Below, one piece after another: positions 12 to 60,984 of a DNA stretch of 64,000 nt. This DNA is from Naegleria gruberi. Its lineage: Eukaryota. Location: the NCBI GenBank assembly GCA_000004985.1, contig GG738853.1. One strand, 5' to 3'. The notes beneath the pieces are model-generated. The model was not told where the DNA came from. It worked only from the letters and a program-made list of their open reading frames with translations, and made no database searches. Numbering within the stretch: the stretch's first letter is position 1; every line of letters begins with the position of its first letter. The translations under genes and the position numbers were made by a program.

Positions 12-3000
12 TTGGAAATTGTGGCATGTGGTGCAGAACCTATCAGAGCAGAAACTATGGAAAGTTTCAGTACACTCTTCTCTGAATTTGGATTGAAAAA
101 ACAAGCCATGTATCCATGTTATGGATTGGCTGAGAGTACTCTCTATGTCACTGGTGTAAACTATATGAAAGGTTTCGACTTTACCACAATTGACAACAAG
201 AACCAATACATTATCAAGAATGGAACAGTCGAACAAACACAAACTCATCAAAAATTCGTTAATTGTGGTGTCAACTATGATGAAAATCAATCCATTAAAA
301 TTGTCGATCCAGAATCTTCTACAGAAATGGAGAATGGAAAGGTTGGTGAAGTTTGGTTGTCAAGTCCAAGTGTCGCTCAAGGTTATTGGGAGAAACCAGA
401 ACTTTCTCAAGAGGTTTTCCATGCACGAGTGGTTGGAGATGATAGGGAGTATCTCAGAAGTGGAGATTTGGGTTTCATGTTGAATGGAAACTTGTACATT
501 ACTGGTCGTCGTAAGGATGTCATTATTTTGAATGGTGTGAATTATTATCCTCAAGATGTAGAATTGGCATGTTCTAAATGTCATGCACAGATTAGAACTG
601 GGTGTGTGGTGGCTGTTAATATTGCTGATCGTGATGGACAGGATCGATTGGTGATAATTGCTGAAACTAAAGTTGTTTCGAATAGTGAGACACAAGTATT
701 GGAGAGTATTGTACAATCCATACGATCTGCAATTGCCGAATCGATGGGAATTCCAATGTATAATGCCCTATCGACCATCCTTCTCATGACTAAAGGAGGC
801 ATTCTCAAGACCACAAGTGGTAAACTGAGACGTCAACCAACTAAACAAGCATTTCTCAATAACAAACTTCCTCCAAAACTAATCGTTCACAGATGGGATC
901 AGGAGAAACTCTCAGATAGCGCTTCTCAACCAAGTACTCCAACAGAGATTGGATTGGCTAAAATTTGGAAAGAATTAACAGGAATTGATCCATCACTTTC
1001 GAATAACTTTTTCCTTTTGGGAGGAAGCTCTATGAGTTTGATTCAGCTAAAATCTAGAATCCAACATGTTTTCAATGTAATTATAAGTTTGACTGATTTG
1101 GTAATGTCGCCAACATTGCAATTGATGGCTAAATTGGTCGATCAACACAGCAATCAATGTAATACTAGCTCTGTACAAATTTCAAAGAGAGAAAGGACAA
1201 GTGACACTTTAGAATTATCAAACTCACAAACGAGATTCTGGTTCTTACATCACTTGATCGATAATCCTGCCATTCACAATGTTTTTGCAGGTGTTCGTTT
1301 GAAAGGTGACTTGGATAAACAAGCTTTAGAAAATTCCATTACCAAACTTGTAGAACGTCATGAAAGTTTACGTACAAGCTTTCAAGAAACAGAGATGTCA
1401 CCAATGCAACACATTCATTCTGAAATTTCTCTCAAATTAAATTCAATTAGTTTGAAACATCTCACTAGTGAAGAAGAAAAGAATTTGGAATTGAACAAGT
1501 TTCTCTTTGATGAGGTGAACGCACCATTCAACTTGAATGAAGCTCCTCTTCTCAGAGCTAACTTGATCGAAATGTCAGAGTGTGATCATGTTTTGGCCAT
1601 GACTTTCCATCATATCATAATCGATGGATGGTCCATGAATTTACTTGTTGAAGAGCTAGTTCAATACTATCTGGCTTTTAAGAATCATCAATCGCCAATT
1701 CTTCCACAAGTTCTTCAATATGGTGATTACACACTGTGGAGCAATCAACAACAATCAATGAATGAAACTCAATTAAAATATTGGGAAGAAAAACTCTCCA
1801 ATTTACCAGAATCTATCAAATTGCCAACAGAAGGCGAAAACTTATCCAAATCATTTGATGGATCTCATTTCTGGTTTGCAATCCCAGAAACTCTCGTTAA
1901 CTCCTTAAGAAAGATCGTTCAATCAAGAGGAGCCACACTCTACATGGGCATGTTAACTCTATTCAATATTTTACTGTACAGATATTCTGAACAGAATGAT
2001 ATTGCAATTGGAACACCTGTTGTGAATAGACAGCAACATGTTGAGTTGGAAGCACTGATTGGACTCTTGGTAAATACTCTGGTGATTAGAAATAATGTGA
2101 ATCCAGAGCATAATTTCATTGAAACTTTGATGGAAATCAAGTCAACTGTAATTGAAGCTTTTGAAAATCAAGATGTTCCTTTCCAGAAAGTTGTAGAAAG
2201 ATTGAAAGATTCACGTAATTCAATGGAGAATCCACTTTTTCAAGTCATGATGGCCATGCACAACCCACAACGGAAAATTGTCATGGATAATCTTGAAACT
2301 GAGCTAGTTAGAGTTGACAATGGATCATCCATGTTTAATTTAACACTTGAATTACAAGAAATAGAGGATGGAAGTTTACAATGTTGTTTCGAATATAGAA
2401 CTGATCTTTTCAAGAAGGAAACTATTGAAAGAATGGCTGGAAATCTTATTGAACTATTGAAATCAGCCACAACTGAATCGGATAACAAATCAATAAGCAA
2501 GTTGTCTTTCCTATCGAATTCTGAAGTTGAAACTTTGAATAATTTTGGAAATATCACCAATAATGATCTCAGTTCTTCAGTTTCGAATAGATTATTACAC
2601 GAACTCATTGAAGAGCAAGCTATCAAAACACCAGACAATACCGCCGTCTACTTCCAAGGTAAATCCTTCTCCTACCAACTTCTCGATCAAAAATCAGACC
2701 AATTAGCAAGGAGATTACGAGATATGAATCACTCCAAAAATCCCTTCATTGCCATTAGCATTGACAGAAGCTTTGAATTGATTGTGAGTTTAGTTGCCAT
2801 TCTCAAAGCTGGATTTGCCTATCTCCCTCTCGATCCAAGCTATCCACAAGAACGATTACTCTACGTGCTTGATGATTCACAAGCAGGTCTGTTAATAACT
2901 CAATCTAATTATTCTGAAAAATTCAAAGACTATCAAGGGAAAGTGTTGTCTATTGATAGATTCGTTTGGTCAGCAAGTAGCACTTCCACATCCTCCATTA

Positions 3001-4433
3001 GTATTGAGAAACCATTGACATCACCAAATGATTTGGCCTATCTCATTTACACTTCTGGCAGCACTGGAAATCCAAAAGGTGTCATGCTTTCTCACAGAAA
3101 TGTAAACAATACTCTCAATGGTCTAATTAAATTGTACGAAATGAAGCAAGATGACAAGTTTATTCATTACAGCTCCTATAGCTTTGATGTTTCATTGGAA
3201 GAGATTTTCCTTCCACTAATTACAGGTGCTTCGATTATTGTGGCCAATCCAAATATTCAATATCAGTTGGAGGAGCTTGTTGACTTGGTTGAGCAAACGA
3301 AGGCAACAATCATTGGTGTCACTCCAAGTTTGTGGCATGGTATAAGGTACCATGTTTTGAGGAATCCAAAATCAACTGAATCTTTAAGAATTGTCACTAT
3401 TGGAAATGAACCTGTTGATTCGAATGCAGTCAAAGAAATCCAACAAATGTGTCCCAATGCAACAGTATTCAATGTATGTGGAGGAACAGAGACTTGCATT
3501 GATTGGTCTCTCTTCAAGGTTCCAAAAGATTATGCACCTTTACAACAAGTAGTTCCTATTGGAAAACCAATTCCTGGTGTCAAATTGTATGTTTTGGATT
3601 CGAATAGAGAGTTAGTTCCAATTGGAGTACCTGGAGAACTCTACGTTGGAGGAAATGGTGTTGGAAATGGATATTGGAAAAATAGTGAGCTAACCTCCAA
3701 GAGCTTTATTGAAAATCCATTCCAAACTAAAGACGAAAAACAGAACAATGTTAATGGAAAACTATTCAAAACAGGAGATTTGGTTAAATGGTTACCTGAT
3801 GGAAATATGGTATTCATCTCCAGATTGGATCATCAAGTGAAATTAAGAGGATTCAGAGTTGAATTGGGTGAAATTCAAAATGTCATGAGGAAGAGTGGTC
3901 TCGTCAGGGAGGCAATTGTGATTCTCCAAGATGATGAGAATGTCAGTAACAAACAACTTGTTGGATACATTGTGTGTAATGAGGGAGAAACTAGACCGCA
4001 CTCAATCATCATACAGCTAGTCAATTCCTACTTGGAGAAACATCTGCCATACTATATGATTCCATCTCATATCATTTGCATTGAAAAAGTTCCAACAACC
4101 AATAATGGAAAATTGGATCGTAGAGCTTTACCAAGAGCAGTTGACCACCAGCAAACTAAAAGACTAGAAGAAAATATGGGAGAGGTCGATCCAGCTGATA
4201 TTCCAGAGAGTCATTGCAAGCTAAGACAAATTTGGTCCAAAGTACTCAAGATGAAGGAGGATTGCATTGGGTTGAGTGATAACTTTTTTGCAATTGGTGG
4301 AAATTCCATTCTCATTGCCCAATTGAGAAGCATGGTTCGTACAGAGTTGGGTATTCAGTTAGAGTTGAAGACTTTCTTTGAAAAATTAACAATCCAATCT
4401 ATGGCTACCCACATTGAAACTGTTAGCCAATAA
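12..4433 (+). CDS. Nonribosomal peptide synthetase-like megasynthase, 3' part only (5' end lies outside the window). Domain order: [C-terminal half of a FAAL-type adenylation domain]-T-C-A-T.
   Basis: Uninterrupted 1473-codon frame running from the window edge to a TAA stop at 4431-4433. FAAL/A-domain C-half motifs: PCYGLAEST and ITGRRKDVIILNGVNYYPQDVE. Carrier domain 1: LGGSSMSL (GGxS, around nt 1025-1045). Condensation domain: HHIIIDGWS (HHxxxDG, around nt 1609-1635). Second adenylation domain: LAYLIYTSGSTGNPKGV (A3, around nt 3040-3085), NVCGGTE, GELYVGGNGVGNGY, FKTGDL...RLDHQVKLRGFRVELGEIQ (A8) and PTTNNGKLDR (A10). Carrier domain 2: IGGNSILIAQL (around nt 4290-4315). No thioesterase or reductase domain lies between carrier domain 2 and the stop. 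Confidence 0.85.
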   Translation: MEIVACGAEPIRAETMESFSTLFSEFGLKKQAMYPCYGLAESTLYVTGVNYMKGFDFTTIDNKNQYIIKNGTVEQTQTHQKFVNCGVNYDENQSIKIVDPESSTEMENGKVGEVWLSSPSVAQGYWEKPELSQEVFHARVVGDDREYLRSGDLGFMLNGNLYITGRRKDVIILNGVNYYPQDVELACSKCHAQIRTGCVVAVNIADRDGQDRLVIIAETKVVSNSETQVLESIVQSIRSAIAESMGIPMYNALSTILLMTKGGILKTTSGKLRRQPTKQAFLNNKLPPKLIVHRWDQEKLSDSASQPSTPTEIGLAKIWKELTGIDPSLSNNFFLLGGSSMSLIQLKSRIQHVFNVIISLTDLVMSPTLQLMAKLVDQHSNQCNTSSVQISKRERTSDTLELSNSQTRFWFLHHLIDNPAIHNVFAGVRLKGDLDKQALENSITKLVERHESLRTSFQETEMSPMQHIHSEISLKLNSISLKHLTSEEEKNLELNKFLFDEVNAPFNLNEAPLLRANLIEMSECDHVLAMTFHHIIIDGWSMNLLVEELVQYYLAFKNHQSPILPQVLQYGDYTLWSNQQQSMNETQLKYWEEKLSNLPESIKLPTEGENLSKSFDGSHFWFAIPETLVNSLRKIVQSRGATLYMGMLTLFNILLYRYSEQNDIAIGTPVVNRQQHVELEALIGLLVNTLVIRNNVNPEHNFIETLMEIKSTVIEAFENQDVPFQKVVERLKDSRNSMENPLFQVMMAMHNPQRKIVMDNLETELVRVDNGSSMFNLTLELQEIEDGSLQCCFEYRTDLFKKETIERMAGNLIELLKSATTESDNKSISKLSFLSNSEVETLNNFGNITNNDLSSSVSNRLLHELIEEQAIKTPDNTAVYFQGKSFSYQLLDQKSDQLARRLRDMNHSKNPFIAISIDRSFELIVSLVAILKAGFAYLPLDPSYPQERLLYVLDDSQAGLLITQSNYSEKFKDYQGKVLSIDRFVWSASSTSTSSISIEKPLTSPNDLAYLIYTSGSTGNPKGVMLSHRNVNNTLNGLIKLYEMKQDDKFIHYSSYSFDVSLEEIFLPLITGASIIVANPNIQYQLEELVDLVEQTKATIIGVTPSLWHGIRYHVLRNPKSTESLRIVTIGNEPVDSNAVKEIQQMCPNATVFNVCGGTETCIDWSLFKVPKDYAPLQQVVPIGKPIPGVKLYVLDSNRELVPIGVPGELYVGGNGVGNGYWKNSELTSKSFIENPFQTKDEKQNNVNGKLFKTGDLVKWLPDGNMVFISRLDHQVKLRGFRVELGEIQNVMRKSGLVREAIVILQDDENVSNKQLVGYIVCNEGETRPHSIIIQLVNSYLEKHLPYYMIPSHIICIEKVPTTNNGKLDRRALPRAVDHQQTKRLEENMGEVDPADIPESHCKLRQIWSKVLKMKEDCIGLSDNFFAIGGNSILIAQLRSMVRTELGIQLELKTFFEKLTIQSMATHIETVSQ

Positions 4434-4873: not shown

Positions 4874-7066
4874 TTATTCAGAAATTGAAATGGTTTGTGA
4901 GGTGTGACTTCTTGTAGACTGTGTGTCATTAGCAATATAAGCTTCTAATGGAATGGTTCTGTGATGTGAAACACCATTTTGTTGGCTCTTATCTACACTC
5001 GAAATGTTCGAATTATTGTTATTCGAATTATGATTAAACTTTTCAAAAAGACCTTGGAAGCTTTCATTTACCTTTCTTCCAATAATGGATAATCTACCAC
5101 TTGCTCTCGATCTAAATGATGAAGGAGCTGTCTGTGAAATTTTTCCACCATGAACTGTTCCCCGTCTTGTTGAAGCTGAAGAAGCATTTCCCACGTACGA
5201 AACCATCGAAGCTGACGAAACAATTTCCTCCTCATTCGTAATATTTCCCAAATTGACAGATTTTCTATTACTATTTGCATGATCAAATTCTGAAAATCTC
5301 TTCTTCATAATATGACTATACATTAGTGAGATTCCCATATCGAAAATGTGTAACGTATTGAACATGTTCTTCCTATCACAACATCCGAGGAATGCCTTGA
5401 AAACATTCAATTCTTGAGCTCGTTCAGTTGCCTGAATATATGAAACAAAATTCATATCAGCAACAGTGATCGTTCTCCTTCGTCCAATCTTGAATTTGTA
5501 CTTTTCCCTCAGATAGTGATCGACCTCATCTCGCTTCAATCCAATCATGGCAACAATGGATTGAGGAAAGTGTGTATTTCTCGTCTCGATAAACTTTTTA
5601 AAATAGGAATTCTCTTTGGAAGGTAATGAATCCTGATTGGTCATATCAAAACAGTACAGGAATAGATCAACCTTCTTTTTAGCATTCTTGAGAATTTTGG
5701 AATTTTCAGATAGTTTTTCATTCATTGTCTTTTCACTTTTGGATGATTTGAAATGATCCGGAATATTGTGTGGAATATCATGAACAACCAGATCGATCCT
5801 TTCACCATTCAACAAGTAATATGGATGACAGTAGGTTTGCATTTGTTCGGTTGGAATGTATCCATGTTCCTTTCCAACTGGCATGGCATTTCCAAAGATG
5901 GATTCTATAAAGGTTGTCTTGCCAACATTCTCTTCACCTACAATGACAATTCTAAATATTTTCCTTCTGGTCTTTCTCTTCACATTGGTCATTAATTTGG
6001 TAAATTGACTAACGTTATTATCAACTTGAACTTGCAGAGGTTCAATACCACAAGCATGTTGACCATCCGATAATCCAACATTAATTGGTGGAGAAACCAG
6101 AGAATGTTCAGAATTTACCGATTGTGCACTCAAAACTGAACTTGTTGATGAATTATGTATTGTATGAGCATTTTGAGAAAGGATTGAATTATCCAAACTC
6201 GACGATTTCACATGGTGATTTCTTTTTTGAGGTGAAGCATTCAAAATATTATCATAACTTGCACTATTAATAATGATACTTCTTCTGGCTAGTGTAGCTG
6301 AAGTGAGTGGTGCATTATCAGTCAATCGCCAACTATTTCTACAACTCCTTAAATCAAAACTTCCAGTTGACCTTGTTGAAGCAAACGAATCATTCAATGA
6401 ATTTCTACTATTCATTGAACCAGTTGTCTGTATTGAGCCACTACTAGTATTATTTGCACTATTGGTATTACTACTCGAAAATTTCATCATTAAAATAGCC
6501 ATAACATGATCCATTTGATCTTCAATCATGGCATTTGACAGTAAATTTGGAAATCTCTTCAAGTGAATTTCATTAATAATCCTCAAACACGTCCAAGATA
6601 TCGAAAGTTGATTCTTTGAAGTCAATCCCAATGATAACAAATCACTAACATTAAGAAATGGAAGAATTCCCTTCTCCACAATTTCACTTTCCATATTTTT
6701 CAATAATTCCACAGCTTGTTTATCCATGAAACAATAATCAGAGTCGGAGAAACTGGCTCTCGAATCGAATGATGGTTTATCTGTTGCTGGACTTGAATGG
6801 CTGGTCCTTCCTGTTGAAGTTGATGGAGAAGAAAGCAAATGATTTTCATACGAAAGTTGACTAATTTCCACAGAAGGACTAGACAAGGAATTTGTCGAAT
6901 ATCTTCCACTATTACTTCCTGTAGGACTTGTTTTCTTATTACTTGTTGATGATGGAATGATGAGTCTGTCTTCTCTTCGTTTACGAAGAATTGCTAATTG
7001 ACGTTGTTGAGAAATTGTCAATTCGTCCTCGTCGAGAGATTCATTGATGGAATTAAAGATTGGCAT
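4874..7066 (-). CDS. Ser/Asn-rich protein containing a Ras-superfamily-like P-loop GTPase domain
   Basis: Long minus-strand ORF. The six-frame track opens it at a TTG at 7237. The first ATG, reading MPIFNSINESLDEDEL, is at 7066-7064. G1 Walker A motif IVIVGEENVGKTTFIESIF at roughly nt 5925-5990. Downstream DxxG/NKxD-like elements (FDMTNQDSL and IGLKRDE). The flanking regions are low-complexity S/N/T-rich. It is possible that 5' exons further upstream exist. Confidence 0.55.
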   Translation of the reverse strand: MPIFNSINESLDEDELTISQQRQLAILRKRREDRLIIPSSTSNKKTSPTGSNSGRYSTNSLSSPSVEISQLSYENHLLSSPSTSTGRTSHSSPATDKPSFDSRASFSDSDYCFMDKQAVELLKNMESEIVEKGILPFLNVSDLLSLGLTSKNQLSISWTCLRIINEIHLKRFPNLLSNAMIEDQMDHVMAILMMKFSSSNTNSANNTSSGSIQTTGSMNSRNSLNDSFASTRSTGSFDLRSCRNSWRLTDNAPLTSATLARRSIIINSASYDNILNASPQKRNHHVKSSSLDNSILSQNAHTIHNSSTSSVLSAQSVNSEHSLVSPPINVGLSDGQHACGIEPLQVQVDNNVSQFTKLMTNVKRKTRRKIFRIVIVGEENVGKTTFIESIFGNAMPVGKEHGYIPTEQMQTYCHPYYLLNGERIDLVVHDIPHNIPDHFKSSKSEKTMNEKLSENSKILKNAKKKVDLFLYCFDMTNQDSLPSKENSYFKKFIETRNTHFPQSIVAMIGLKRDEVDHYLREKYKFKIGRRRTITVADMNFVSYIQATERAQELNVFKAFLGCCDRKNMFNTLHIFDMGISLMYSHIMKKRFSEFDHANSNRKSVNLGNITNEEEIVSSASMVSYVGNASSASTRRGTVHGGKISQTAPSSFRSRASGRLSIIGRKVNESFQGLFEKFNHNSNNNNSNISSVDKSQQNGVSHHRTIPLEAYIANDTQSTRSHTSQTISISE

Positions 7067-7956
7067 GATTATAAAAAGAGGGTTATGTTGTGATGATGAT
7101 GAATTATCATGTGTGTCTGTTGAGTGAGTATCTAACGGTTTGATTTTTTTAATTTGTTGATTCGAATAAAATGTGAGAGGGACTACGAAAGGAAAGAATG
7201 AGTTGCTAATTGAGATAAAATCAATTAAATATGACAACTATTCTTGGCGAGTAAGAAGAAAAGGTGATAATTAGAGATGATAACAATTACAACTGTTTAG
7301 TTTCAATTTTTTCTTTCGTCTTCTACAAATCGAAAGGTACATAAACCTTTCAGATTGCTACTACACTTCATCAATTGCACTAACATTTTTCATCCGTTCC
7401 ATGTAAAGAAACTTTCACCCTATCACTTGTCTTTCAATAAATGTCACCCTCAATCCAAATTTCAAAAAACATGTCCACACATCGCGCAAAAAGTTCACTT
7501 GGATGGAAGTTGAAAATTACGCCATTAGTGAAAAGTTTAAAAAAACTTGGAAAAATATAAAACTTGGATCCTCAACAGGCCAAGATTATGAAATGAGGTC
7601 ATGTTGAAAAGTGTCTTCGATTGAGTTGAATAATGGGTCGTTTTTAAGATAAATTAAAGAAATGGATGGTGTTTACAATGGGAAAGATGGATGAGATGGA
7701 AATTTGTGAATTTCCTTATTGGAATTATAATTGTATCATATTCAATTGTTTTCAAGTGAATTTCGAATAAAATGATATTAAAAACTTAAGTGATAATTGT
7801 CAATAATGTTTGAAAAAGACAAGATTATTACAATGACATGGACTTTTGGTGTATTTCTTACTAATTTGGACTGGACGAAAGGAAGCATTTCGACTGATGA
7901 TTAATTGATTGCTGTTCAAGATACTTCCAATTCAAATTACACACAAAAATCAAAAA
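7067..7956. promoter_or_regulatory. Divergent AT-rich intergenic region shared by the minus-strand GTPase gene and the plus-strand 7TM-RGS gene (putative bidirectional promoter)
   Basis: About 0.9 kb lying between two start codons in head-to-head orientation. It contains A/T homopolymer runs and no ORF. The function is inferred from position only. Confidence 0.3.
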
Positions 7957-10050
7957 ATGCATCCCTCTTCTCTCTTCATACTCTTTCTTTTTCTTTCTGC
8001 CAGTTTCGTCTATTCTCTCACAACCAACCAAACTCGTTTCTTCAATGATCTAGATCCTAATTCCTCCATATCCTTCGTCAATGACTATTTATCTGCCATA
8101 ATCTACCACAATCCTTCTCAGCCCTTCAATATTACCTCTAAAAATCAACTCTTTTCACAAAATTTAAAAATTGTTTCAATTTTACCAGAAGAAAATCTAA
8201 TGAAATTGTGGAAAACACTTCCCTTGAATAGAAATCAAGTAATTTTGAATAATTTCGAGAAGGGAGCTTGTCAGATTTATCATCCTTTGGAAGAATTTGA
8301 TGTGATTATTACGAGTAGGAGTTTATTCTTGCAAAAGTTTCGAATATTTAGAAAGGGAATGGGAATTCGAAAGTTGGAAGGAGAATATTTTGAGACGAGT
8401 GATTTTATATTTGTTGATTTGCTTCCTTATACTGTTTTGCAAGTTAACTCGAATGATGAATTGATACGGTTCAATGTTTCGAATGAAAAACCTTCATGTA
8501 AGGAAGTATTGCAGAATTTCGAATATGAACAAAATGTATTGACAGCCTATTCAATTTTGACACAAAATAATTCATCATCTACTATTAACAATGAAGATTT
8601 ACAATTCCTCAAACTGTGGAATTCATTTAACATCAATCTCATGAGTGTCACCAATCAACAGCTATTTAGAACATATCTATCTCAACAATTTAATCTTTCC
8701 AGCAACTCAACTATCCAACAATTGAACTCCCTTCTCTTACCTTCCAACTGTTCAGTTTGCAAGAGTGACATGTGTCTCACTGATTTAGAATTTAAAGAAG
8801 TTGAATATTGGGTCATTCCACAAATTTGTTTTGTCATCATTTACATGATTTTCTTGATATGTAGTGGAGCATTGACACAACCTTCACTGAAAAGAAGATT
8901 ACTGACACCTTACTTGCCATTATTAATGTTGTATTTCATGTTTGCTTTGGCTGATGTCTTTACTCCATGGTGCAGAAGTGTTTTGTTTATTACAGTTGGA
9001 TTTTTCTTGACATTCTGTTCATTGGTTAATGTGTTTACCTATTTGAGATTGTACTATTTGAGAAATTTGTATAGATTATTCTCAAATTCTGAAAAGATTA
9101 ATTCAATTTTGAGTGGAATAGTTCCAGGATTGTTATTTACAGGACTTTTACCATTTCTAATGTCATTTTTTGTTTCGTCTCACTACATTTCAATTCCTTT
9201 CGTATTGGATCGTCCTCTGGTATTTGCACTGAATATTAATGTTGGAGTAACAATTGGAATTTGTTGTTTAATTGGTTTCATTGTCATTATATGTGATATA
9301 TTAATTAATAGAAAGAAGTGGAAAGATAAGGGATTGAGATACATGTTATTCTTTGACGATCCGTTCATGATTCGTATAGATATGATACTACTTTCGTTTA
9401 ATTTAGTGATCCTCATATTGATGACTGCCTTTTCGTTTAACAGACATGCTATTTACTTTCTGAGAACAATTCTCTTCTTTTCATTTATTCTGACCTGTGG
9501 AGGACAATGTATTATAAAGTATCTATTCGAAAAGCTGAGAAGAAACAAAACTGAACAAGAATCGAGCTTTGAGGAGTTTATGAAAAATGATGATTTTAGG
9601 AGAATTCAAAGAGAATATTGTGTTAAAGAACTTTCCTTGGAAAATTACAATTTTTTCGTATATCTTAATGAATTGAAAAGTAAGGCAATGAAAAATTTGA
9701 CACTTTCACAAATGATTGAAGTGGAAAAGGAATATTTGACTGGAGTGTTTGAAGTGAACGTATCTGGAAGTTCGAAACGTGCATTTTACAAACTGAAAAA
9801 GCAAGTGGAAGGATCAAGTGCAGAGGCAAATGTTTCGTCCAGCTCAGTTTCAATTTCTTCCATGACTGGTGTCGGTTCTGCATCCTCTTCCATAGCTGAA
9901 CACCAATTCAAGGTCCAAGAATTAATTTCAATATTTGAAATGGAAGTTTTAACCAATCTCAAAGATACCTTTTCAAGAATGGAAAAAACTCTCGAATTCT
10001 TAACTTGGCAAAAAGTATACAAAATCCAAAAACAAAATGATATTTGCTAG
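7957..10050 (+). CDS. Seven-transmembrane protein with a C-terminal RGS (regulator of G-protein signalling) domain
   Basis: ATG at 7957. Signal-peptide-like N-terminus MHPSSLFILFLFLSASFVYS. An N-terminal region of ~280 aa with many N-glycosylation sequons (NxS/T). Seven hydrophobic helices at about nt 8800-9540 (VIPQICFVIIYMIFLICSG ... AIYFLRTILFFSFILTCGG). Then SFEEFMKNDDFRRIQREYCVKELSLENYNFFVYLNELK...EVNVSGSS, which fits the RGS-box pattern (F..FL..E.S.EN..F; eiNld). Single exon. Confidence 0.65.
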   Translation: MHPSSLFILFLFLSASFVYSLTTNQTRFFNDLDPNSSISFVNDYLSAIIYHNPSQPFNITSKNQLFSQNLKIVSILPEENLMKLWKTLPLNRNQVILNNFEKGACQIYHPLEEFDVIITSRSLFLQKFRIFRKGMGIRKLEGEYFETSDFIFVDLLPYTVLQVNSNDELIRFNVSNEKPSCKEVLQNFEYEQNVLTAYSILTQNNSSSTINNEDLQFLKLWNSFNINLMSVTNQQLFRTYLSQQFNLSSNSTIQQLNSLLLPSNCSVCKSDMCLTDLEFKEVEYWVIPQICFVIIYMIFLICSGALTQPSLKRRLLTPYLPLLMLYFMFALADVFTPWCRSVLFITVGFFLTFCSLVNVFTYLRLYYLRNLYRLFSNSEKINSILSGIVPGLLFTGLLPFLMSFFVSSHYISIPFVLDRPLVFALNINVGVTIGICCLIGFIVIICDILINRKKWKDKGLRYMLFFDDPFMIRIDMILLSFNLVILILMTAFSFNRHAIYFLRTILFFSFILTCGGQCIIKYLFEKLRRNKTEQESSFEEFMKNDDFRRIQREYCVKELSLENYNFFVYLNELKSKAMKNLTLSQMIEVEKEYLTGVFEVNVSGSSKRAFYKLKKQVEGSSAEANVSSSSVSISSMTGVGSASSSIAEHQFKVQELISIFEMEVLTNLKDTFSRMEKTLEFLTWQKVYKIQKQNDIC

Positions 10051-10124: not shown

Positions 10125-10933
10125 ATGAAAAATTTAAAATTACAATTAAAAAAAATGTCTCAACAAGAAACAAGTTCACCATCAGCGGAATCAACTGAAA
10201 AACAAGTTGTTTTGATGAAGGAAAGTAGGAATTATATGGGTCACAAACCAACAAATAAAAAGAGGATGGTTGAGGTGAAGAGGCCAGTTTATGATTTTCC
10301 TCTTGATGATTTTTCGATTTTTGGAAAGGTTTCGGATGAGGATTTGAAGCTCAATTCGACCTATGCTTTGCATACAGCTTTGTGTTACATTCCACCAGAG
10401 TCTATATGGGATCCTGTTCAAGATATAAGACAGGAAATTGATAAGGTATGTTTGAATACTGCTATTTGGTTTCGAACAAATAATAGGGAATGGAAAGATG
10501 GCCTCCTCATGTGAACTTGTTATTTCCTTTTATTCCAGAAACATGTTTTGATTCGGCTTTGAAATTATTGACTCAAGAATTGCAAGATTTCAAACCTTTC
10601 GAATGCTCATTCGATTCAATTTCATATTTTGAAAAAGGATCTTCTGTCTTGTGGGTCAACCAAAACGAAACTGCAAGAAATAACTTTATAGAATTACAAA
10701 AACGAGTTGCTTCCCTCTTTCCTTATTGTGCTAAGAAGAAAAACGAAACTGGAGAATTCATTCCACACATGACTGTTGGTTATGCACCAAAAACAATTGT
10801 GGAAAAAGTTCACAAACAATTGAGTGAGGATTGGAAAACTCAAACTGTAACAGTTGGAGAAATTTGCATGATTTACAGACCTGATGTGGATACTTGTTTC
10901 AAAATTATTCACAAAGTACCACTTGGAAAGTAA
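10125..10933 (+). CDS. 2H phosphoesterase superfamily protein (LigT/CPDase-like, two H-x-T/N-x motifs)
   Basis: Two track ORFs in different frames. They are joined by a 41-nt intron, GTATGT...AATAG, at 10446..10486. Exons are 10125..10445 and 10487..10933. The spliced product reads ...ALHTALCYIPPESIWDPVQDIRQEIDK|GMERWPPHVNLLFPFIPE...FIPHMTVGYAPK. That gives the two catalytic H-x-[TN]-x motifs (HVNL and HMTV) at the spacing typical of 2H enzymes. Confidence 0.6.
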
Positions 10934-22071: not shown

Positions 22072-22205
22072 CAGAATCAATATTTTATTAAATAATAACA
22101 ATCTGATATCTTCTTAATAAGAACACCTCAATCATCAAATATTACTGATAACACCCTTCACATGTCAGCCATCACCTGTTGATCTTCCAAACCATCATAA
22201 AAAAA

Positions 22206-25094
22206 ATGTTTAAAAAAGTCTTTGGAAATAATGGCAGTAAAAAACCAGAGCCAAACAACAATGTCATTGTTGAATCAGCCTCCTCCGACCAACCACCTCC
22301 ATCATCACCAACCACTCCCTCTGACGAACAACCAAGAAAACGAACACCCGTTGCGCCACAAATTCAAGAAGTGAGCGCCAAAGTAAATAATCAATATGTT
22401 CCCACCAAAAAAAACACCGAAGAACAGTACAGTGAGAGTGATAAGGGAGTCTCTGAGAGAAATAAACAAGCATCGGATGTGGTTCGTGTTGAGAGAAATC
22501 AGGGTGATGAAGCGTTGAAGGCTGTTAGAGGATTGTCTGATGGTTTGGAAGATCAACAGGATGATGATTTGGATGGAAAGAAGAAGAAGAAAAAGAAGAA
22601 GGATAAAGAAAGTATTGTTGTTAATACAACAGCTGGAAAGGGAAAGAAATCAACAATTTTGGGTGATTTGATGGGAATTGCTGCTAGAAAGGGATATCTG
22701 AGTAAGAGAGGTGGTTCTATCAAGACTTGGCACAAGAGATTTTTCATTGTTGTTGGTCATCGTCTCTATTATTACAAAGACGATAGTTCAAAGAATGAAC
22801 CATTGGGTTCTGTTAAATGTAAAGGACCAGAAAGTGTTCAACCTGTTGCAGACACATCTCGTCCTAACTGTTTTAGAATTATCTCTGAAGAGAGAACATT
22901 ATACTGTCAAGCTGAAAATGAAAATGACATGAATTCTTGGATGAATTTTTTGAAGGAACACACTTCAAAATTGAATTTACGTAAAGTGAAAGAACTTTCC
23001 AATCTTCAAGGATACATGACATTGTTGGATAATCAAACAAAGAAAAAGAAACGTGATGTTTATTGTTTGTGTATGGATGGTAAATTTTACATTTTGAATA
23101 ATTTTGAGGATGTATTACCGGATAGAATTGTAGAATTGGCTGGTGCCAGTGTAAGCAAAGTTAGTATTTCAGGTACATCAACAAATAATTTATTGGAAAC
23201 ACCTGCAACTCCTTCAAGTCCTAGAAAGATCAACAATACTGAAATTCAAGATTTTGCATTCCAAATCACAGAAAGTTTGCAAGCCGGATACATCCCAGAA
23301 GATGTTGCACCAGAAAAGGAAAAGTCTGGTAGATCTTCACGTTCCAGCTCTACTTTCCGTCAATCTAAAATGTTCAGTAGAAAATCAATGAAGGTCAATG
23401 ATAGCAGTCAATCAGGAAGTGGACAAGGCGATACTACAGCTCGTTTGAGAAAGGGAACTCAATTTTTCCAAAACTTGATCACTAGTGTTGAAGGACTCAA
23501 TCAAGTTACACTAACATCAATTGATCCATTTTTGGCTGATGCTGAAATTTGGTGTGAAATGGTTCGTCACGAATCTGAATTGGCCTCAACCAGTTGGTAT
23601 GTTCGTAACTCTCAAATGCGTGGTTGGATCAAGATTTTAATGAACAACGATGAAGTCAACAAGGCCATTCTTCAAGATAAGAAGAAACCAGAATCATTAT
23701 ATTGGATTGAAAGATATGCCTGTCTTGTTCGTGGTACCTTGTTCTACTTTTCCGAAGAGAATTCTCCAACTCCAGATGGTAGTATTGTCCTCACTACAGG
23801 TTCTCGTCTCGTAACCTCAGCTGTTCGTGAATTGAACTGTCCATATGCATTCAAGATTTCTTCACTTTCATCCAATTTTTATGTTTGCGTAAATTCGGAT
23901 GATGAAAAGGATTGTTGGGTTGAAGAATTAAAGGAAGCAACCTACTCTCAAGCCAATCTCGACTATAACAAGTATGGTTGGTTGACCAAGCAAGGTGGTT
24001 CCTACAAGTCTTGGAAGGAACGTTTCTGTATCTTGAAGGGTACCAATTTGTACTATTTCTCTGATCCAAATGACTCTGAACCTAAGGGTAAAGTCAATCT
24101 TAAGGGTCAAATGATTCGTCACCTTACTCCAGTCGAGGCCTACAATGAAGTTCAAAAGGATAACGTTATCAAGATTTACACTAGTCAACGTACTTGGTAT
24201 TTCTTTGCAGATACCATGCAAGAAGCTGTCGAATGGTCTATTGTATTGAGAAAGGCAGCCCTTCTCTATCGTGGTAGAACTTGGATTGTTGATGACAAGT
24301 TGGATGGCATGGATGCAAAGAATTCCTTGAGATGTAAGAGTATTTCCCAAGCTGTTGCCAAAGCAGCAGAATTGGATCGTATCATTGTCTATTCTGGTGT
24401 ATATTCTGAAACTGTAGTTGTAAACAAATCTGTAATTATAGAATGTGTAGGTGATGTGGTATTAAAGAAGGATTCTGGAGCTCCACTCATTGTGGATTGT
24501 ATTGGTGCCGTAAAGGTCACTGGTATGGAATTAAGACAAGAAGGAGCTCCTAAAGAGCTCAGAGGTGACAAACATGCAGCTGAAGTTAAACGTGGTAACA
24601 TTATGTTTGAACATTGTCAAATTACCAGCAGAGATGGTAATGGTGTTGTCATTACCGAAGAAGGTGGTGTCACTATGAGCAAGTGTCGTGTATTCGACTG
24701 CAACCACTATGGCGTTTGGTTGAACGGAAGAGCTAGTGCCATTTTGGAAAATGTGGAAATTTGTGGATGTCAATGGGATGGTGTCATGCTCATGGCTAAT
24801 ACTGACTGTATCATTCGTCAATCTGATATTTTCAACAATTCTTACAATGGTATTGCCGTCTCTTCAAAGGGTCGTCTCAATGTAGAAAATTGTAGAATAA
24901 GTGGAAACTTGTGGGATGGTATCTCTATCAATACTGACAAGGGTGCTGCCAGATTATTCGATAACTTTATTTTTGACAACCAAGGATTTGGTATTTATTA
25001 TGCTAAAGATAATGTCAGTGGTATCAACGTTGACAATGAAGTGTATTCCAATAAGAAGGGTCAAATCTACACTCTCAGTGGTAGACTTGAATAA
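22206..25094 (+). CDS. Multi-PH-domain protein with a C-terminal right-handed parallel beta-helix (PbH1-repeat) region
   Basis: ATG at 22206; the track ORF opens earlier at a TTG. Four PH-like modules: KGYLSKRGGSIKTWHKRFFIV...NSWMNFLK; LQGYMTLLDNQTKKKKRDVYCL...; LYWIERYACLVRGTLFYFSEE...CWVEELK; and KYGWLTKQGGSYKSWKERFCILKGTNLYYF...AVEWSIVLRKA. The C-terminal ~250 aa have periodic N..GI/W.DG beta-helix repeats (CQITSRDGNGVVI..., NHYGVWLNG..., QWDGVMLMAN..., SYNGIAVSS..., LWDGISINTD..., QGFGIYYA). Confidence 0.65.
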   Translation: MFKKVFGNNGSKKPEPNNNVIVESASSDQPPPSSPTTPSDEQPRKRTPVAPQIQEVSAKVNNQYVPTKKNTEEQYSESDKGVSERNKQASDVVRVERNQGDEALKAVRGLSDGLEDQQDDDLDGKKKKKKKKDKESIVVNTTAGKGKKSTILGDLMGIAARKGYLSKRGGSIKTWHKRFFIVVGHRLYYYKDDSSKNEPLGSVKCKGPESVQPVADTSRPNCFRIISEERTLYCQAENENDMNSWMNFLKEHTSKLNLRKVKELSNLQGYMTLLDNQTKKKKRDVYCLCMDGKFYILNNFEDVLPDRIVELAGASVSKVSISGTSTNNLLETPATPSSPRKINNTEIQDFAFQITESLQAGYIPEDVAPEKEKSGRSSRSSSTFRQSKMFSRKSMKVNDSSQSGSGQGDTTARLRKGTQFFQNLITSVEGLNQVTLTSIDPFLADAEIWCEMVRHESELASTSWYVRNSQMRGWIKILMNNDEVNKAILQDKKKPESLYWIERYACLVRGTLFYFSEENSPTPDGSIVLTTGSRLVTSAVRELNCPYAFKISSLSSNFYVCVNSDDEKDCWVEELKEATYSQANLDYNKYGWLTKQGGSYKSWKERFCILKGTNLYYFSDPNDSEPKGKVNLKGQMIRHLTPVEAYNEVQKDNVIKIYTSQRTWYFFADTMQEAVEWSIVLRKAALLYRGRTWIVDDKLDGMDAKNSLRCKSISQAVAKAAELDRIIVYSGVYSETVVVNKSVIIECVGDVVLKKDSGAPLIVDCIGAVKVTGMELRQEGAPKELRGDKHAAEVKRGNIMFEHCQITSRDGNGVVITEEGGVTMSKCRVFDCNHYGVWLNGRASAILENVEICGCQWDGVMLMANTDCIIRQSDIFNNSYNGIAVSSKGRLNVENCRISGNLWDGISINTDKGAARLFDNFIFDNQGFGIYYAKDNVSGINVDNEVYSNKKGQIYTLSGRLE

Positions 25095-30891: not shown

Positions 30892-33087
30892 ATGGCCACC
30901 ACAACATCATCATTAACTTCTCTAATTCCTCCTCCAATATTATCATCCTCTCAACAACAACAAACACAATTGACGGATGTACCTCCATCATCGCAGAGTA
31001 CAACACAATTACCACCCGATGATGATTTGGATGCTTTGGACGAATTTGATGAATTGATGGCTTTCGTCAATGCTCCTATGGATACAAATTCTGAACAATG
31101 GCGTTTATTGAATCAAAATTCAAATGTTCCACCAGTGACAACAACAACTTCCTCTATTCCTCCTAATGATACAACAGTAAACAGTAGTGCTACTACATCA
31201 AATGTAACTGCACCAACTACTGAAAAGAAGAAAAAGACTACAAAAAAGAAGAAGGATGAAAAGGAAACCACCACTAAAAAGAAGGAAACAAAGAAGAAGA
31301 AGGATGATAAAAAAGAGGACAAGAAGGAAGATAAAAAGGAAGAAAAGAAAGAAGAAAAGGAAAAGAAGAAGAAAAAGAAGAAGGAGGAGCCATCTACTCC
31401 AAAGGATACTGTCAAACAAGAAGAGCCTGCTGTTTCCACACCAAAAGATCCCAATCTTAAGAAACCTGATATTTCATATTCTACAATGATTGCTCATGCA
31501 CTCATGTCAGCAGCTAATAACATGATGCCTCTCAAATCAATTTATTCTTGGATTTCCACAACTTATCCATTCTACGATCTTGCAGAGACTGGTTGGAAGA
31601 GTAGTGTGAGACATAATTTGAGCACAAATTCTAAATATTTCCGAAGAGTATCACCTGAAGAATGGAGACAATTAACTGGAGAAGAGAAAAAGTCAAAATC
31701 TAAAAAACAAGGCTCCTCAGATAAGAAGATGGCATTCTCTGTCTATGCACTTGTGACTGAGCATTGTGATGAAGTTTTGGGAACAAAGAAAGCCAAATCA
31801 GACAAGAAGGCATCCTCTTCTACTTCTTCTTTAACAACGCTTAGTAATGCTACTACAGCACCAGTTAGTTCATCATCTACATTACCTGCCAATAGTACTC
31901 TTTCTTCTTCTACTAATGCAACCACTGACCAAACAGCAATAACCTCAGAAGTGAAAGAAGTTAAGGAAAAAGAAACCAAGAAGAAGAAATCATCCACCAG
32001 TAGTGCAACAAAGAAGAGAAGTAGAAAAAAGTCCGAATCTACAGACTTGGATTTAAATGATGGCTTGTTGAACTTTGATGAAATTGCACCATCAATGAGT
32101 TTGGATAAACCAGAAAAGAAAAAGAAGAAGAAGACTTCTAAAAAATCAGAAACTCCTACAGCTAGTACAACTCCAGCTGCTGAATCTTCAACACCTGTGA
32201 CTCAAACCAATAACAACAATAATACCAATGTAACTACTCCCCAATTGTCACATTCCAGTTCCAATCAAAACTTCCAACACAGTACTCCAACTAATCAAAT
32301 TTCTATCACCCAAAATATTATGCCAAATACATCTCAACCATTGGCTCCAAAACAACCATTCCCTTTGTCAAATCAAATTCCTAATCAAATTCCACCAAAC
32401 CAAATGCCAAATCAAATGCCAAACCAAATGCCAAATCAGATGCCAAATCAAATACCTAATCAAATCCCTCGTCAAAGTACTAATAACTTGTTGGAAATGT
32501 TTGTTCAGAATGGAATGCTAAATGCCCAAGAACCTTCTTTTCTTAAAATTTTATTGGATGGAAATGGAGATTCATCAGCCAACAATCCATTATCAGCGCT
32601 CATGGGTCAAGGAGGTCAGAATATGAATCCAAACCAAGGACTCAATACAGCACCACTTGGTAATATGGTTGATTCACAGGGAAAGCAAATTGACCTTATT
32701 AATTTACTTTCAATGGTAACTGGAATGCCTCAACAACAAAACATGTCTCAATCTGGTATGTCTCAACCACCAATGCACCAAAACTTTTTAGATCCAAATA
32801 ACAGACTTGTTACACAAGGAAGACCTCCTAATTGGCCACCTGGTGCAGGCTTACCAAATCAACTTCAAGGAGGAAGGCCTTCTATGGGATCAGTTGTTGG
32901 TATGCAAAATCCTGGTCAATTCCCTGTACAAAATCCAAATATGAATCCATTAGGTCATCCAGGATTTAATCAATTCCCATTTCCCATGATGAACTACTCT
33001 CAAACACTTCTCAACTTTGATCCATCATCAATACTGCAGCAACAAGGTAATGGTGGTATTCCTCCCAATAATAACAATAATAAATAG
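30892..33087 (+). CDS. Forkhead (winged-helix) DNA-binding domain protein. This is the likely 3' portion of the same FHA-forkhead gene.
   Basis: Forkhead box at about nt 31462-31640: KPDISYSTMIAHALMSAANNMMPLKSIYSWISTTYPFYDLAETGWKSSVRHNLSTNSKYFRRV. It carries the invariant features KP..SY..LI..AI, F.YY, GW.NS[IV]RHNLS. The flanks are a K/E-rich block and Q/N/P-rich tandem repeats (NQMP)n. The reading frame is open upstream to nt 30790, overlapping the end of the FHA ORF. Confidence 0.7.
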   Translation: MATTTSSLTSLIPPPILSSSQQQQTQLTDVPPSSQSTTQLPPDDDLDALDEFDELMAFVNAPMDTNSEQWRLLNQNSNVPPVTTTTSSIPPNDTTVNSSATTSNVTAPTTEKKKKTTKKKKDEKETTTKKKETKKKKDDKKEDKKEDKKEEKKEEKEKKKKKKKEEPSTPKDTVKQEEPAVSTPKDPNLKKPDISYSTMIAHALMSAANNMMPLKSIYSWISTTYPFYDLAETGWKSSVRHNLSTNSKYFRRVSPEEWRQLTGEEKKSKSKKQGSSDKKMAFSVYALVTEHCDEVLGTKKAKSDKKASSSTSSLTTLSNATTAPVSSSSTLPANSTLSSSTNATTDQTAITSEVKEVKEKETKKKKSSTSSATKKRSRKKSESTDLDLNDGLLNFDEIAPSMSLDKPEKKKKKKTSKKSETPTASTTPAAESSTPVTQTNNNNNTNVTTPQLSHSSSNQNFQHSTPTNQISITQNIMPNTSQPLAPKQPFPLSNQIPNQIPPNQMPNQMPNQMPNQMPNQIPNQIPRQSTNNLLEMFVQNGMLNAQEPSFLKILLDGNGDSSANNPLSALMGQGGQNMNPNQGLNTAPLGNMVDSQGKQIDLINLLSMVTGMPQQQNMSQSGMSQPPMHQNFLDPNNRLVTQGRPPNWPPGAGLPNQLQGGRPSMGSVVGMQNPGQFPVQNPNMNPLGHPGFNQFPFPMMNYSQTLLNFDPSSILQQQGNGGIPPNNNNNK

Positions 33088-59747: not shown

Positions 59748-60391
59748 AGTCAACATTTACATTCCCATGGTACCATTTCTGATTACTAGGACATGAAATT
59801 AAATTCTATATCATTATAGATCATCTACATTATGATGGTAAAGTTTCAATAGGTGGTCCTTTTTCCAGATTTCCACATATTCATACAAGTTCATACAAGT
59901 TGACCCTATGATGGTTGAGGGAAGAAATCTTTAAATATGAAAGTTAAAATAAATTTGATATTCGATGTTTACTCATCAAATGGAACATTTTCATGTCAGG
60001 ATTCAATATGTTTTCATGAGAAACTCAAAAGTTATTGTTGACCTATTGTACCTCACAACTTCCCTTTTCACTTGATACTTTTATACCTACAGACATGAAC
60101 TTTTGAAATTTTATATGAAAGTGATTATGAATGTTGTTAATGATGATATAGACTATATAATCTCATTAAAGGATTTTGAAACTATCATCCTTCCTATGGT
60201 TTCATTTTACAATTTTTAATCTGACATTATTTACAAGGTTGATATTTTATAAATTGAAAAACTAAATATACCACATTGTTCTACTCATCATTTACAATCG
60301 AATGATATAAAATTTAATGATATTTGAATAAGTTTATATATTTGGGCTAGGGTTTGAACGTTGGGTTTAGAAGAATTCTATTTTTAGAATT

Positions 60392-60808
60392 GGGTTTGGG
60401 TTTGGGTTTGGGTTTGGGTTTGGGTTTGGGTTTGGGTTTGGGTTTGGGTTTGGGTTTGGGTTTGGGTTTGGGTTTGGGTTTGGGTTTGGGTTTGGGTTTG
60501 GGTTTGGGTTTGGGTTTGGGTTTGGGTTTGGGTTTGGGTTTGGGTTTGGGTTTGGGTTTGGGTTTGGGTTTGGGTTTGGGTTTGGGTTTGGGTTTGGGTT
60601 TGGGTTTGGGTTTGGGTTTGGGTTTGGGTTTGGGTTTGGGTTTGGGTTTGGGTTTGGGTTTGGGTTTGGGTTTGGGTTTGGGTTTGGGTTTGGGTTTGGG
60701 TTTGGGTTTGGGTTTGGGTTTGGGTTTGGGTTTGGGTTTGGGTTTGGGTTTGGGTTTGGGTTTGGGTTTGGGTTTGGGTTTGGGTTTGGGTTTGGGTTTG
60801 GGTTTGGG
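60392..60808 (+). repeat. (GGGTTT)n telomere-like hexamer array, about 70 units. It is preceded by degenerate variants and truncated by a 50-N gap at 60809-60858.
   Basis: Perfect 6-nt periodicity can be read directly. The lead-in at 60340-60391 carries degenerate copies (GGGCTAGGGTTTGAACGTTGGGTTTAG...). Confidence 0.95.
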
Positions 60809-60984
60809 NNNNNNNNNNNNNNNNNNNNNNNNNNNNNNNNNNNNNNNNNNNNNNNNNNTCTCATTGATACATGTCTAATTATCATGTTTTATGATATATA
60901 ATTGAAATAATTGAAATTTATCATATATATAGGGAGATAACCAATTAGGATGAGAGAAGGGGAAGTTACGCTCACAATTTACCA

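What the first reader, a model, noticed from the sequence alone, without database searches (positions are those of the whole stretch)
7957..10050. Single-exon gene fusing a seven-transmembrane core to a C-terminal RGS box (plant RGS1-like architecture)
An N-terminal signal peptide and a glycosylated ectodomain are followed by seven hydrophobic helices. After the last helix comes a segment with the RGS-box hallmarks (SFEEFMKNDDFRRI...ELSLENYNFF...EVNVSGSS). 7TM-RGS proteins are best known from plants (AtRGS1), where the receptor-like protein is itself the GAP for G-alpha. One in an amoebozoan-like genome would be a receptor-GAP candidate worth characterising. The RGS assignment rests on motif spacing read by eye.
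Basis: partly seen in the sequence, partly recalled or inferred. Interest (0 to 1): 0.7.

Follow-up and report, generated by a model that had tools for sequence, protein, structure and literature searches.

The report
Divergent Naegleria 7TM-RGS receptor-GAP gene
This Naegleria gruberi gene encodes a membrane protein with a signal peptide, an extracellular domain, seven membrane helices and a divergent internal RGS domain; it belongs to a receptor-GAP family already described in Naegleria, so it is a missed annotation rather than a new kind of system.

The parts
7957..10050 (+). Complete single-exon ORF, 697 aa plus stop; identical to a Naegleria gruberi 'predicted protein' (P0001)
7957..8025 (+). 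Signal-peptide-like hydrophobic N-terminus (aa 1-23)
   Evidence: Hydropathy peak at aa 5-23. Other family members also have hydrophobic N-termini. No dedicated signal-peptide predictor was run.
8026..8811 (+). Extracellular domain (aa 24-285) with 9 N-X-S/T sequons and a Cys-x2-Cys-x4-Cys cluster (C265, C268, C273) just before TM1. Fold unknown; the domain is specific to one subfamily.
   Evidence: Sequons and Cys positions. The domain is shared by 35 of 152 proteins that carry the same 7TM core. There is no Pfam hit and no credible PDB profile hit. AlphaFold confidence is low here.
8812..9516 (+). Seven-transmembrane core (aa 286-520). Family-conserved cytoplasmic motifs are KRRLLxPY (ICL1), RxYYLRNLY (after TM3), FFDDPFxxRID (ICL3 into TM6) and GG in TM7.
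   Evidence: Foldseek hits are exclusively GPCRs but weak (best E=0.045). No Pfam GPCR family matches.
9517..9564 (+). Short basic juxtamembrane linker (aa 521-536, 5 K+R) between TM7 and the RGS domain
9565..10035 (+). Divergent RGS domain (aa 537-693), predicted to be cytoplasmic
9628..9645 (+). E558-L-S560-L-E562-N563, which aligns to RGS4 E83-Y-S85-E-E87-N88 (alpha3-alpha4 loop, part of the G-alpha switch-I pocket)
   Evidence: hhalign; numbering check; at least 90% conserved in 54 relatives
9751..9759 (+). E599-V-N601, which aligns to RGS4 E126-V-N128 (the Asn that contacts the G-alpha catalytic Gln and switch regions)
   Evidence: N601 is at least 90% conserved
9808..9909 (+). Ser-rich insertion (aa 618-651, 13 Ser of 34), predicted disordered, between RGS helices alpha6 and alpha7. 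This loop varies in length across the family.
   Evidence: Alignment gaps; pLDDT below 50; composition
9955..9978 (+). N667-L668-K-D670-T671-F-S-R674, which aligns to RGS4 N158-L159-..-D163-S164-..-R167 (the alpha7-alpha8 side of the G-alpha pocket)
   Evidence: Relaxed and global hhalign; N667, D670 and R674 are at least 90% conserved

Best explanation
The gene encodes a type-I-oriented membrane protein with four parts: a cleavable signal peptide, an N-glycosylatable ectodomain of about 260 aa, a GPCR-like seven-helix bundle, and an RGS domain about 16 residues after TM7 on the cytoplasmic face. It is a divergent paralogue within the heterolobosean 7TM-RGS family.

The most likely mechanism is a receptor-GAP. 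The membrane-tethered RGS domain binds the switch regions of GTP-bound Naegleria G-alpha subunits and accelerates GTP hydrolysis. This keeps fast-exchanging ('self-activating') G-alpha subunits off. An extracellular cue sensed by the ectodomain or 7TM bundle would then alter that GAP activity or the protein's localisation.

Shown here: the domain architecture, the topology, RGS homology at family level, the predicted RGS fold, and conservation of the G-alpha-contact residues.

Inferred: GAP activity (by analogy with N. fowleri 7TM RGS2-4 and AtRGS1), ligand regulation, and any regulatory role for the Ser-rich alpha6-alpha7 insertion.
For: - Architecture and topology.
- The tail profile hits 30 PDB chains, all RGS, with best E=1.1e-7.
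- 4 of 9 close relatives and 32 of 54 wider relatives hit Pfam RGS, with best E=2.2e-11.
- RGS4 S85, E87, N88, N128, L159, D163, S164 and R167 align to S560, E562, N563, N601, L668, D670, T671 and R674. E558, S560, E562, N563, N601, N667, D670 and R674 are among the few columns at least 90% conserved across 54 diverse relatives.
- 113 of 152 proteins with this 7TM core carry the tail directly after it.
- Relatives carry EGF and GPS ectodomains, as described for the Nf 7TM-RGS proteins.
- Literature: N. fowleri 7TM RGS2-4 RGS domains are GAPs for Nf G-alpha 2, 3, 5 and 7, and some Nf G-alpha subunits self-activate (PMC9283941). N. gruberi has about 44 G-alpha and 229 Pfam-detected RGS proteins (PMC8584482, PMC3971589).
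Against: - The query's own sequence fails Pfam RGS: no hit on the whole protein, and 11.9 bits against a 23.9-bit cutoff on the tail.
- hhalign to RGS4 gives only 43.5% probability, and Foldseek E-values are weak (0.039 or higher).
- The structural evidence rests on a predicted model built from an 8-sequence alignment.
- A 34-residue insertion interrupts the domain.
- No biochemical data exist for this protein or its subfamily. No ligand is known for any Naegleria 7TM-RGS protein.
- Expression was not checked.
Confidence: 0.75

Rival explanations
1. The tail is an RGS-homology domain that has lost GAP activity. It would act as a scaffold or G-alpha-binding effector module, as in axin, sorting nexins, GRKs or the rgRGS domains of RhoGEFs.
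Against: All eight RGS4 pocket and catalytic-Asn positions are retained, and most of those columns are at least 90% conserved across 54 relatives. To my knowledge, non-GAP RGS-homology domains typically lose these residues; this was not tested here. Sequence-profile hits go to R4/RZ/R7 GAP-type RGS proteins and not to axin or SNX.
Confidence: 0.15
2. The 7TM bundle is a conventional GEF-type GPCR that activates G-alpha on ligand binding. The fused RGS domain would then provide built-in rapid signal termination rather than tonic repression.
For: Foldseek hits of the whole model are all GPCRs, many of them G-protein-coupled complexes. Conserved basic and aromatic cytoplasmic motifs after TM3 and in ICL3 occupy the positions where GPCRs contact G proteins. 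De Mendoza et al. argue that GAP and GEF receptor modes can coexist.
Against: No sequence match to any Pfam GPCR family. The fold matches are not significant (E of 0.045 or higher; TM-score normalised to the matched structure 0.13-0.53, mostly about 0.4) on a model with 7TM pLDDT of 60-78. Some Naegleria G-alpha subunits self-activate without a GEF.
Confidence: 0.1
3. The RGS resemblance is a chance similarity in an unrelated helical C-terminal tail.
For: The single-sequence Pfam hit is not significant (E=0.3) and covers only 68 of 117 model positions.
Confidence: 0.02

Closest known systems
Naegleria fowleri 7TM RGS proteins (Bosch, Jeck and Siderovski, J Biol Chem 2022; PMC9283941)
   Same: Same genus-level lineage and same order of parts: extracellular N-terminus, 7TM, C-terminal RGS. 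The query's 7TM-core profile retrieves N. fowleri, N. lovaniensis, N. gruberi and Willaertia proteins, including members with EGF arrays and a GPS motif like those described in the paper. The G-alpha-contact residues are conserved, which fits the canonical RGS/G-alpha interface shown there.
   Different: The query's ectodomain has no EGF, lectin or GPS domain and no detectable homologue outside its own subfamily. Its RGS domain is too divergent for Pfam and carries a 34-aa Ser-rich insertion. It has no close N. fowleri orthologue; the best match is 29% identical. Whether its N. fowleri relative is among the published 28 was not mapped.
Arabidopsis thaliana AtRGS1 (plant 7TM-RGS receptor-GAP)
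   Same: Both have a 7TM domain followed by a cytoplasmic RGS box. Both are proposed to restrain self-activating G-alpha subunits (PMC9283941 and PMC8584482).
   Different: From my own knowledge, AtRGS1 has no signal peptide or large ectodomain and has a longer linker between TM7 and the RGS box. No sequence link between the two 7TM domains was found: none of the 30 family members looked up by name is from a plant. The fusions may be independent. No direct comparison was run.
Mammalian R4/RZ-type RGS domains (RGS4, RGS3, RGS16, RGS17, RGS10)
   Different: Sequence identity is only 12-18%. The first helix is absent or merged with the TM7 linker. There is an insertion between alpha6 and alpha7. 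The domain is tethered to a 7TM bundle rather than soluble or palmitoylated.
Adhesion and secretin (class B) GPCRs
   Same: A large N-terminal ectodomain precedes the 7TM bundle. The top Foldseek hits for the 7TM bundle are class B receptors. One relative has a GPS motif.
   Different: There is no 7tm_2, GPS or GAIN match in the query, and the fold matches are not significant. Membership is not supported.

Membership tests
RGS domain (Pfam PF00615) | Match to the Pfam RGS HMM at or above the gathering score (23.9 bits) | tested here: not met
   The whole protein gives no hit at E<=10. The isolated tail gives 11.9 bits, E=0.3, covering model positions 1-68 of 117. The tail with the insertion removed gives no hit at E<=0.01. 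Relatives do match: 4 of 9 and 32 of 54 at E<=1e-3.
RGS domain (Pfam PF00615) | All-helical, two-lobed RGS fold | tested here: met
RGS domain (Pfam PF00615) | G-alpha switch-binding residues: RGS4 S85, E87, N88, N128, L159, D163, S164, R167 (residue list from my knowledge of the RGS4/Gi-alpha-1 structure) | tested here: met
   They align to S560, E562, N563, N601, L668, D670, T671 and R674. The RGS4 sequence was verified against 1agr_E. Most of these columns are at least 90% conserved in 54 relatives. The C-terminal half of the alignment has low hhalign confidence.
RGS domain (Pfam PF00615) | GTPase-accelerating activity on G-alpha-GTP | not testable with these tools
   Needs biochemistry. It was shown only for N. 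fowleri 7TM RGS2-4 (PMC9283941).
Heterolobosean 7TM-RGS family (Bosch et al. 2022) | Seven TM helices with a C-terminal cytoplasmic RGS domain | tested here: met
   topology; RGS
Heterolobosean 7TM-RGS family (Bosch et al. 2022) | 7TM core homologous to other Naegleria 7TM-RGS proteins | tested here: met
   The core profile finds 150 cluster representatives at E<=1e-3 and 60 at E<=1e-30. 113 of 152 have the RGS tail. Named members are N. gruberi, N. lovaniensis, N. fowleri and Willaertia magna. EGF- and GPS-bearing members are included.
Heterolobosean 7TM-RGS family (Bosch et al. 2022) | Correspondence to one of the 28 published N. fowleri genes | not tested
   The paper uses AmoebaDB identifiers in a supplement. 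They were not mapped to P0003 (FDP41_008785).
Plant AtRGS1-type 7TM-RGS | 7TM domain followed by a C-terminal RGS box | tested here: met
Plant AtRGS1-type 7TM-RGS | 7TM domain homologous to the AtRGS1 7TM domain | tested here: inconclusive
   No plant protein is among the 30 family representatives looked up by name or among the word-indexed hits.
Plant AtRGS1-type 7TM-RGS | Short N-terminus without a signal peptide or ectodomain (from my own knowledge of AtRGS1) | tested here: not met
   The query has a signal-peptide-like N-terminus and a 262-aa ectodomain.
Named GPCR classes (rhodopsin, secretin/adhesion, glutamate, Frizzled, cAR) | Match to a Pfam 7TM receptor family, or a GPS/GAIN domain for adhesion GPCRs | tested here: not met
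   No Pfam hit for the query or for any of 10 cores at E<=5. A GPS motif occurs in only 1 of 54 relatives.
Named GPCR classes (rhodopsin, secretin/adhesion, glutamate, Frizzled, cAR) | GPCR-type seven-helix bundle fold | tested here: inconclusive
   All 50 listed Foldseek hits are GPCRs or GPCR-like 7TM proteins, but the best E is 0.045 and the TM-score normalised to the matched structure is 0.13-0.53 (mostly about 0.4). The model's 7TM pLDDT is 60-78.

The most novel reading that the evidence does not exclude
The ectodomain of about 260 aa, shared by about 35 family clusters and without any detectable sequence homologue in Pfam or PDB, could be a new heterolobosean ligand-binding fold. The Ser-rich disordered insertion inside the RGS domain (aa 618-651) could be a phosphorylation-controlled switch that turns the GAP off or triggers endocytosis. 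That would be a built-in counterpart of the phosphorylation-dependent regulation of AtRGS1. More broadly, the same 7TM-RGS chassis is combined with enzyme-like (alpha/beta-hydrolase) ectodomains in paralogues, which hints at a modular receptor-GAP sensing system.
Probability: 0.15. Interest if true: 0.5.

Novelty: new member of a known kind. Interest (0 to 1): 0.3.

Why it matters
The practical value is in annotation and cataloguing. This protein is listed as a domain-less "predicted protein", and Pfam gathering thresholds miss its RGS domain. Censuses built on those thresholds, such as the count of 229 RGS proteins in N. gruberi, therefore undercount 7TM-RGS receptors.

The 7TM-core profile built here (A4) recovers about 150 clusters. 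It shows that 7TM core plus RGS is the conserved unit and that ectodomains are swapped (own type, EGF, GPS, alpha/beta-hydrolase). That could help in choosing candidates for ligand discovery in Naegleria, including the pathogen N. fowleri.

It does not open a new question. Receptor-GAP signalling in Naegleria is already established biochemically at the level of isolated RGS domains.

Tried and rejected
- Pfam was run on the whole protein, the ectodomain, the 7TM core, the tail, and the tail without the insertion. The only relevant result was a sub-threshold RGS hit (E=0.3), alongside a chance-level DUF6848 hit.
- phmmer of the whole protein against PDB gave only chance hits: LPP20 and pilin, E of 0.59 or higher.
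- Foldseek of the whole-protein model was dominated by weak GPCR matches and did not show the RGS domain. The tail was therefore folded and searched separately.
- Pfam scans of ten 7TM cores at E<=5 gave no GPCR family.
- The ectodomain profile (14 sequences) against PDB gave only ribosomal eS10 (E=0.007) and CENP-S, judged to be chance. The ectodomain part of the AlphaFold model is too uncertain to search (pLDDT 30-65).
- The afdb50 fold library was unavailable, so no structural comparison with AtRGS1 or AlphaFold-database paralogues was possible.
- Anantharaman et al. 2011 (PMC3396428) and Bradford et al. 2013 (PMC4871593) are not held in the library.
- A GPS-like reading of the C-x2-C-x4-C cluster before TM1 was considered and rejected. 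The query gives no Pfam GPS hit, and there is no conserved H-L-T/S cleavage motif in the alignment.
- The low-GC, high-skew stretch at 60-64 kb was checked. It is an artefact of assembly-gap Ns.

Full report
**Observation.** The + strand carries an uninterrupted ORF. Its first ATG is at 7957 and its stop codon ends at 10050, giving 697 aa. The mechanical ORF list starts 16 codons earlier at a TTG, but an in-frame stop lies shortly upstream, and the public gene model begins at the ATG. The protein is 100% identical over 100% of its length to a "predicted protein" of Naegleria gruberi on a 695,587-bp contig (P0001). The window therefore comes from a heterolobosean (Discoba), not an amoebozoan, and the annotated gene is single-exon.

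**Topology.** Kyte-Doolittle analysis with a 19-residue window finds a hydrophobic N-terminus (aa 5-23) and exactly seven further hydrophobic segments: 286-304, 316-334, 342-360, 388-406, 432-450, 476-494 and 502-520. Nine N-X-S/T sequons lie between residues 24 and 264. The AlphaFold model has long helices at the same places. The loops predicted to be cytoplasmic hold 19 K+R, against 3 in the short extracellular loops. This fits an N-out/C-in orientation with the tail in the cytoplasm. No dedicated signal-peptide or TM predictor was available, and glycosylation is only inferred.

**The RGS claim: the proposed test fails.** The whole protein gives no Pfam hit at E<=10. The isolated tail gives RGS at E=0.3 and 11.9 bits, against a gathering score of 23.9, covering model positions 1-68 of 117. 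Excising the Ser-rich insertion does not bring the tail to E<=0.01. phmmer against PDB finds nothing relevant.

**The RGS claim: family-level and structural evidence supports it.**
- Homologues at 24-30% identity exist in N. lovaniensis, N. fowleri, N. gruberi and Willaertia magna. They align end to end with the query, and 4 of 9 hit Pfam RGS, with best E=8.5e-7.
- A profile of eight tails (A2) hits 30 distinct PDB sequences at E<=0.01. All are RGS domains, led by RGS17 (1.1e-7) and RGS10 (2e-7).
- The tail folded alone gives mean pLDDT 80.7 and pTM 0.70. Only residues 97-120 of the tail, the insertion, are of low confidence.
- The top 42 Foldseek hits are RGS domains. The TM-score normalised to the matched structure reaches 0.83 at 2.0-2.1 A rmsd (RGS16, RGS8), although E-values are weak at 0.039 or higher.

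**Functional residues.** hhalign of the tail profile to RGS4 gives E=2.4e-4 and 43.5% probability. It aligns S560, E562 and N563 with S85, E87 and N88, and N601 with N128. Relaxed and global settings extend the alignment so that L668, D670, T671 and R674 fall on L159, D163, S164 and R167, though with low per-column confidence. From my knowledge of the RGS4/Gi-alpha-1-AlF4 structure, these positions form the pocket for switch-I Thr182 and include the Asn that contacts the catalytic Gln. In a 54-member alignment with a mean column identity of 9%, the few columns at least 90% conserved include E558, S560, E562, N563, N601, N667, D670 and R674. That conservation pattern is what a G-alpha-binding, GAP-competent RGS domain would show. 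It is the main argument against a degenerate scaffold domain.

**The 7TM core and the family.**
- A profile of the 7TM core alone (A4) was searched exhaustively against 1.84 billion cluster representatives. It finds 150 proteins at E<=1e-3, 96 at E<=1e-10 and 60 at E<=1e-30.
- Local HMM searches show that 113 of 152 proteins carry the RGS-like tail directly after the core. Most of those without it are fragments that end inside the core. Only 35 share the query's ectodomain.
- I looked up names for 30 representatives. Every named one is from N. gruberi, N. lovaniensis, N. fowleri or W. magna. The rest are unnamed metagenome, Logan or EukProt sequences. None is from a plant.
- The closest relative is an N. 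gruberi paralogue, NAEGRDRAFT_66373, at 49% identity.
- A Pfam census of 54 members gives RGS in 32 (best 2.2e-11), alpha/beta-hydrolase folds in 6, EGF arrays in 2, and GPS and NMT1/THI5 in 1 each.
- The core matches no Pfam GPCR family. The whole-protein model retrieves only GPCRs of classes B, A, C and D, at non-significant scores: best E=0.045, with TM-score normalised to the matched structure of 0.13-0.53, mostly about 0.4.
- Conserved cytoplasmic motifs are KRRLLxPY, RxYYLRNLY, FFDDPFxxRID and GG in TM7. They define the family but have no known function.

**Ectodomain.** It has no Pfam hit. A 14-sequence profile finds nothing credible in PDB. The AlphaFold model is unreliable here, with pLDDT of 30-65. 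Its fold and ligand remain unknown.

**Comparison with what is known.**
- Bosch, Jeck and Siderovski (PMC9283941) report 28 7TM proteins with C-terminal RGS domains in N. fowleri, some with EGF, lectin and GPS ectodomains. Isolated RGS domains of Nf 7TM RGS2-4 accelerate GTP hydrolysis on Nf G-alpha 2, 3, 5 and 7 through a canonical interface. Nf G-alpha 5 and 7 self-activate.
- De Mendoza et al. (PMC3971589) count 229 RGS proteins in N. gruberi using Pfam gathering thresholds, which would miss this protein. They also note that many bikonts have 7TM-RGS architectures.
- The query's family contains EGF- and GPS-bearing Naegleria members, so it fits the family Bosch et al. described; its N. fowleri relative was not mapped to their 28 genes.
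- The resemblance to plant AtRGS1 is one of domain order and presumed logic. Common descent of the 7TM part is untested.

**Mechanism.** The best-supported model is a receptor-GAP (confidence about 0.75 for the whole statement). A membrane-anchored RGS domain sits about 16 residues from TM7 and deactivates GTP-bound G-alpha subunits. Ectodomain or 7TM-mediated sensing would modulate that activity. The architecture, RGS homology, predicted fold and residue conservation are shown here. GAP activity, ligand control and any role for the Ser-rich insertion (13 Ser in 34 residues) are inferred. The rivals are a non-GAP scaffold domain (0.15), a GEF-type GPCR with a self-limiting RGS (0.10, and not exclusive of the main model), and chance resemblance (0.02).

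**Verdict.** This is a new, divergent and currently unannotated member of a known kind. Interest is 0.3.

Noticed in passing
window 60390-60808 and 63554-63999 (gaps from 60809 and from 60985): Two perfect (TTGGGT)n arrays of about 70 and 75 copies flank runs of N, which are assembly gaps. The apparent 17-18% GC, the extreme GC skew and the roughly 680-aa 'ORFs' on both strands at 60950-63008 are artefacts of the Ns. The hexamer arrays look telomere-like. They may mark a scaffold join at chromosome ends or an interstitial telomeric repeat.
   Followed up: partly
window 12-4430 (+), runs off the window start: A large ORF encodes a non-ribosomal-peptide-synthetase-like module: Condensation (2.8e-99), AMP-binding (1.1e-95) and PP-binding domains. 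This is an NRPS-type enzyme in a heterolobosean amoeba. Its origin, for example horizontal transfer, was not examined.
   Followed up: no
window 30892-33084 (+): A 731-aa ORF has a clear Forkhead DNA-binding domain (Pfam E=1.1e-21). Forkhead factors are usually discussed as opisthokont and amoebozoan proteins.
   Followed up: no
window 4874-7237 (-): The divergently transcribed neighbour of the 7TM-RGS gene is separated from it by about 720 bp. It is a Ser/Asn-rich 787-aa protein with a weak small-GTPase-like domain (MMR_HSR1 2.8e-5, Ras 8e-4). No link to the 7TM-RGS gene was tested.
   Followed up: no
window 10125-10933 (+): Two ORFs in different frames (129 aa and 147 aa) overlap by 25 bp immediately downstream of the 7TM-RGS gene. 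They are probably one gene split by a short intron or a frameshift.
   Followed up: no
related proteins in alignment A5 (for example the P0145 cluster): Six of 54 proteins with the same 7TM-RGS chassis have an alpha/beta-hydrolase-fold ectodomain (Abhydrolase_1, best 3.6e-6). One cluster member is named 'pimeloyl-ACP methyl ester carboxylesterase' by its source. An enzyme-like ectodomain on a receptor-GAP is unusual.
   Followed up: partly
window 22179-25091 (+): A 971-aa ORF combines three PH domains with a C-terminal right-handed beta-helix/NosD-like region. This is an unusual domain pairing.
   Followed up: no
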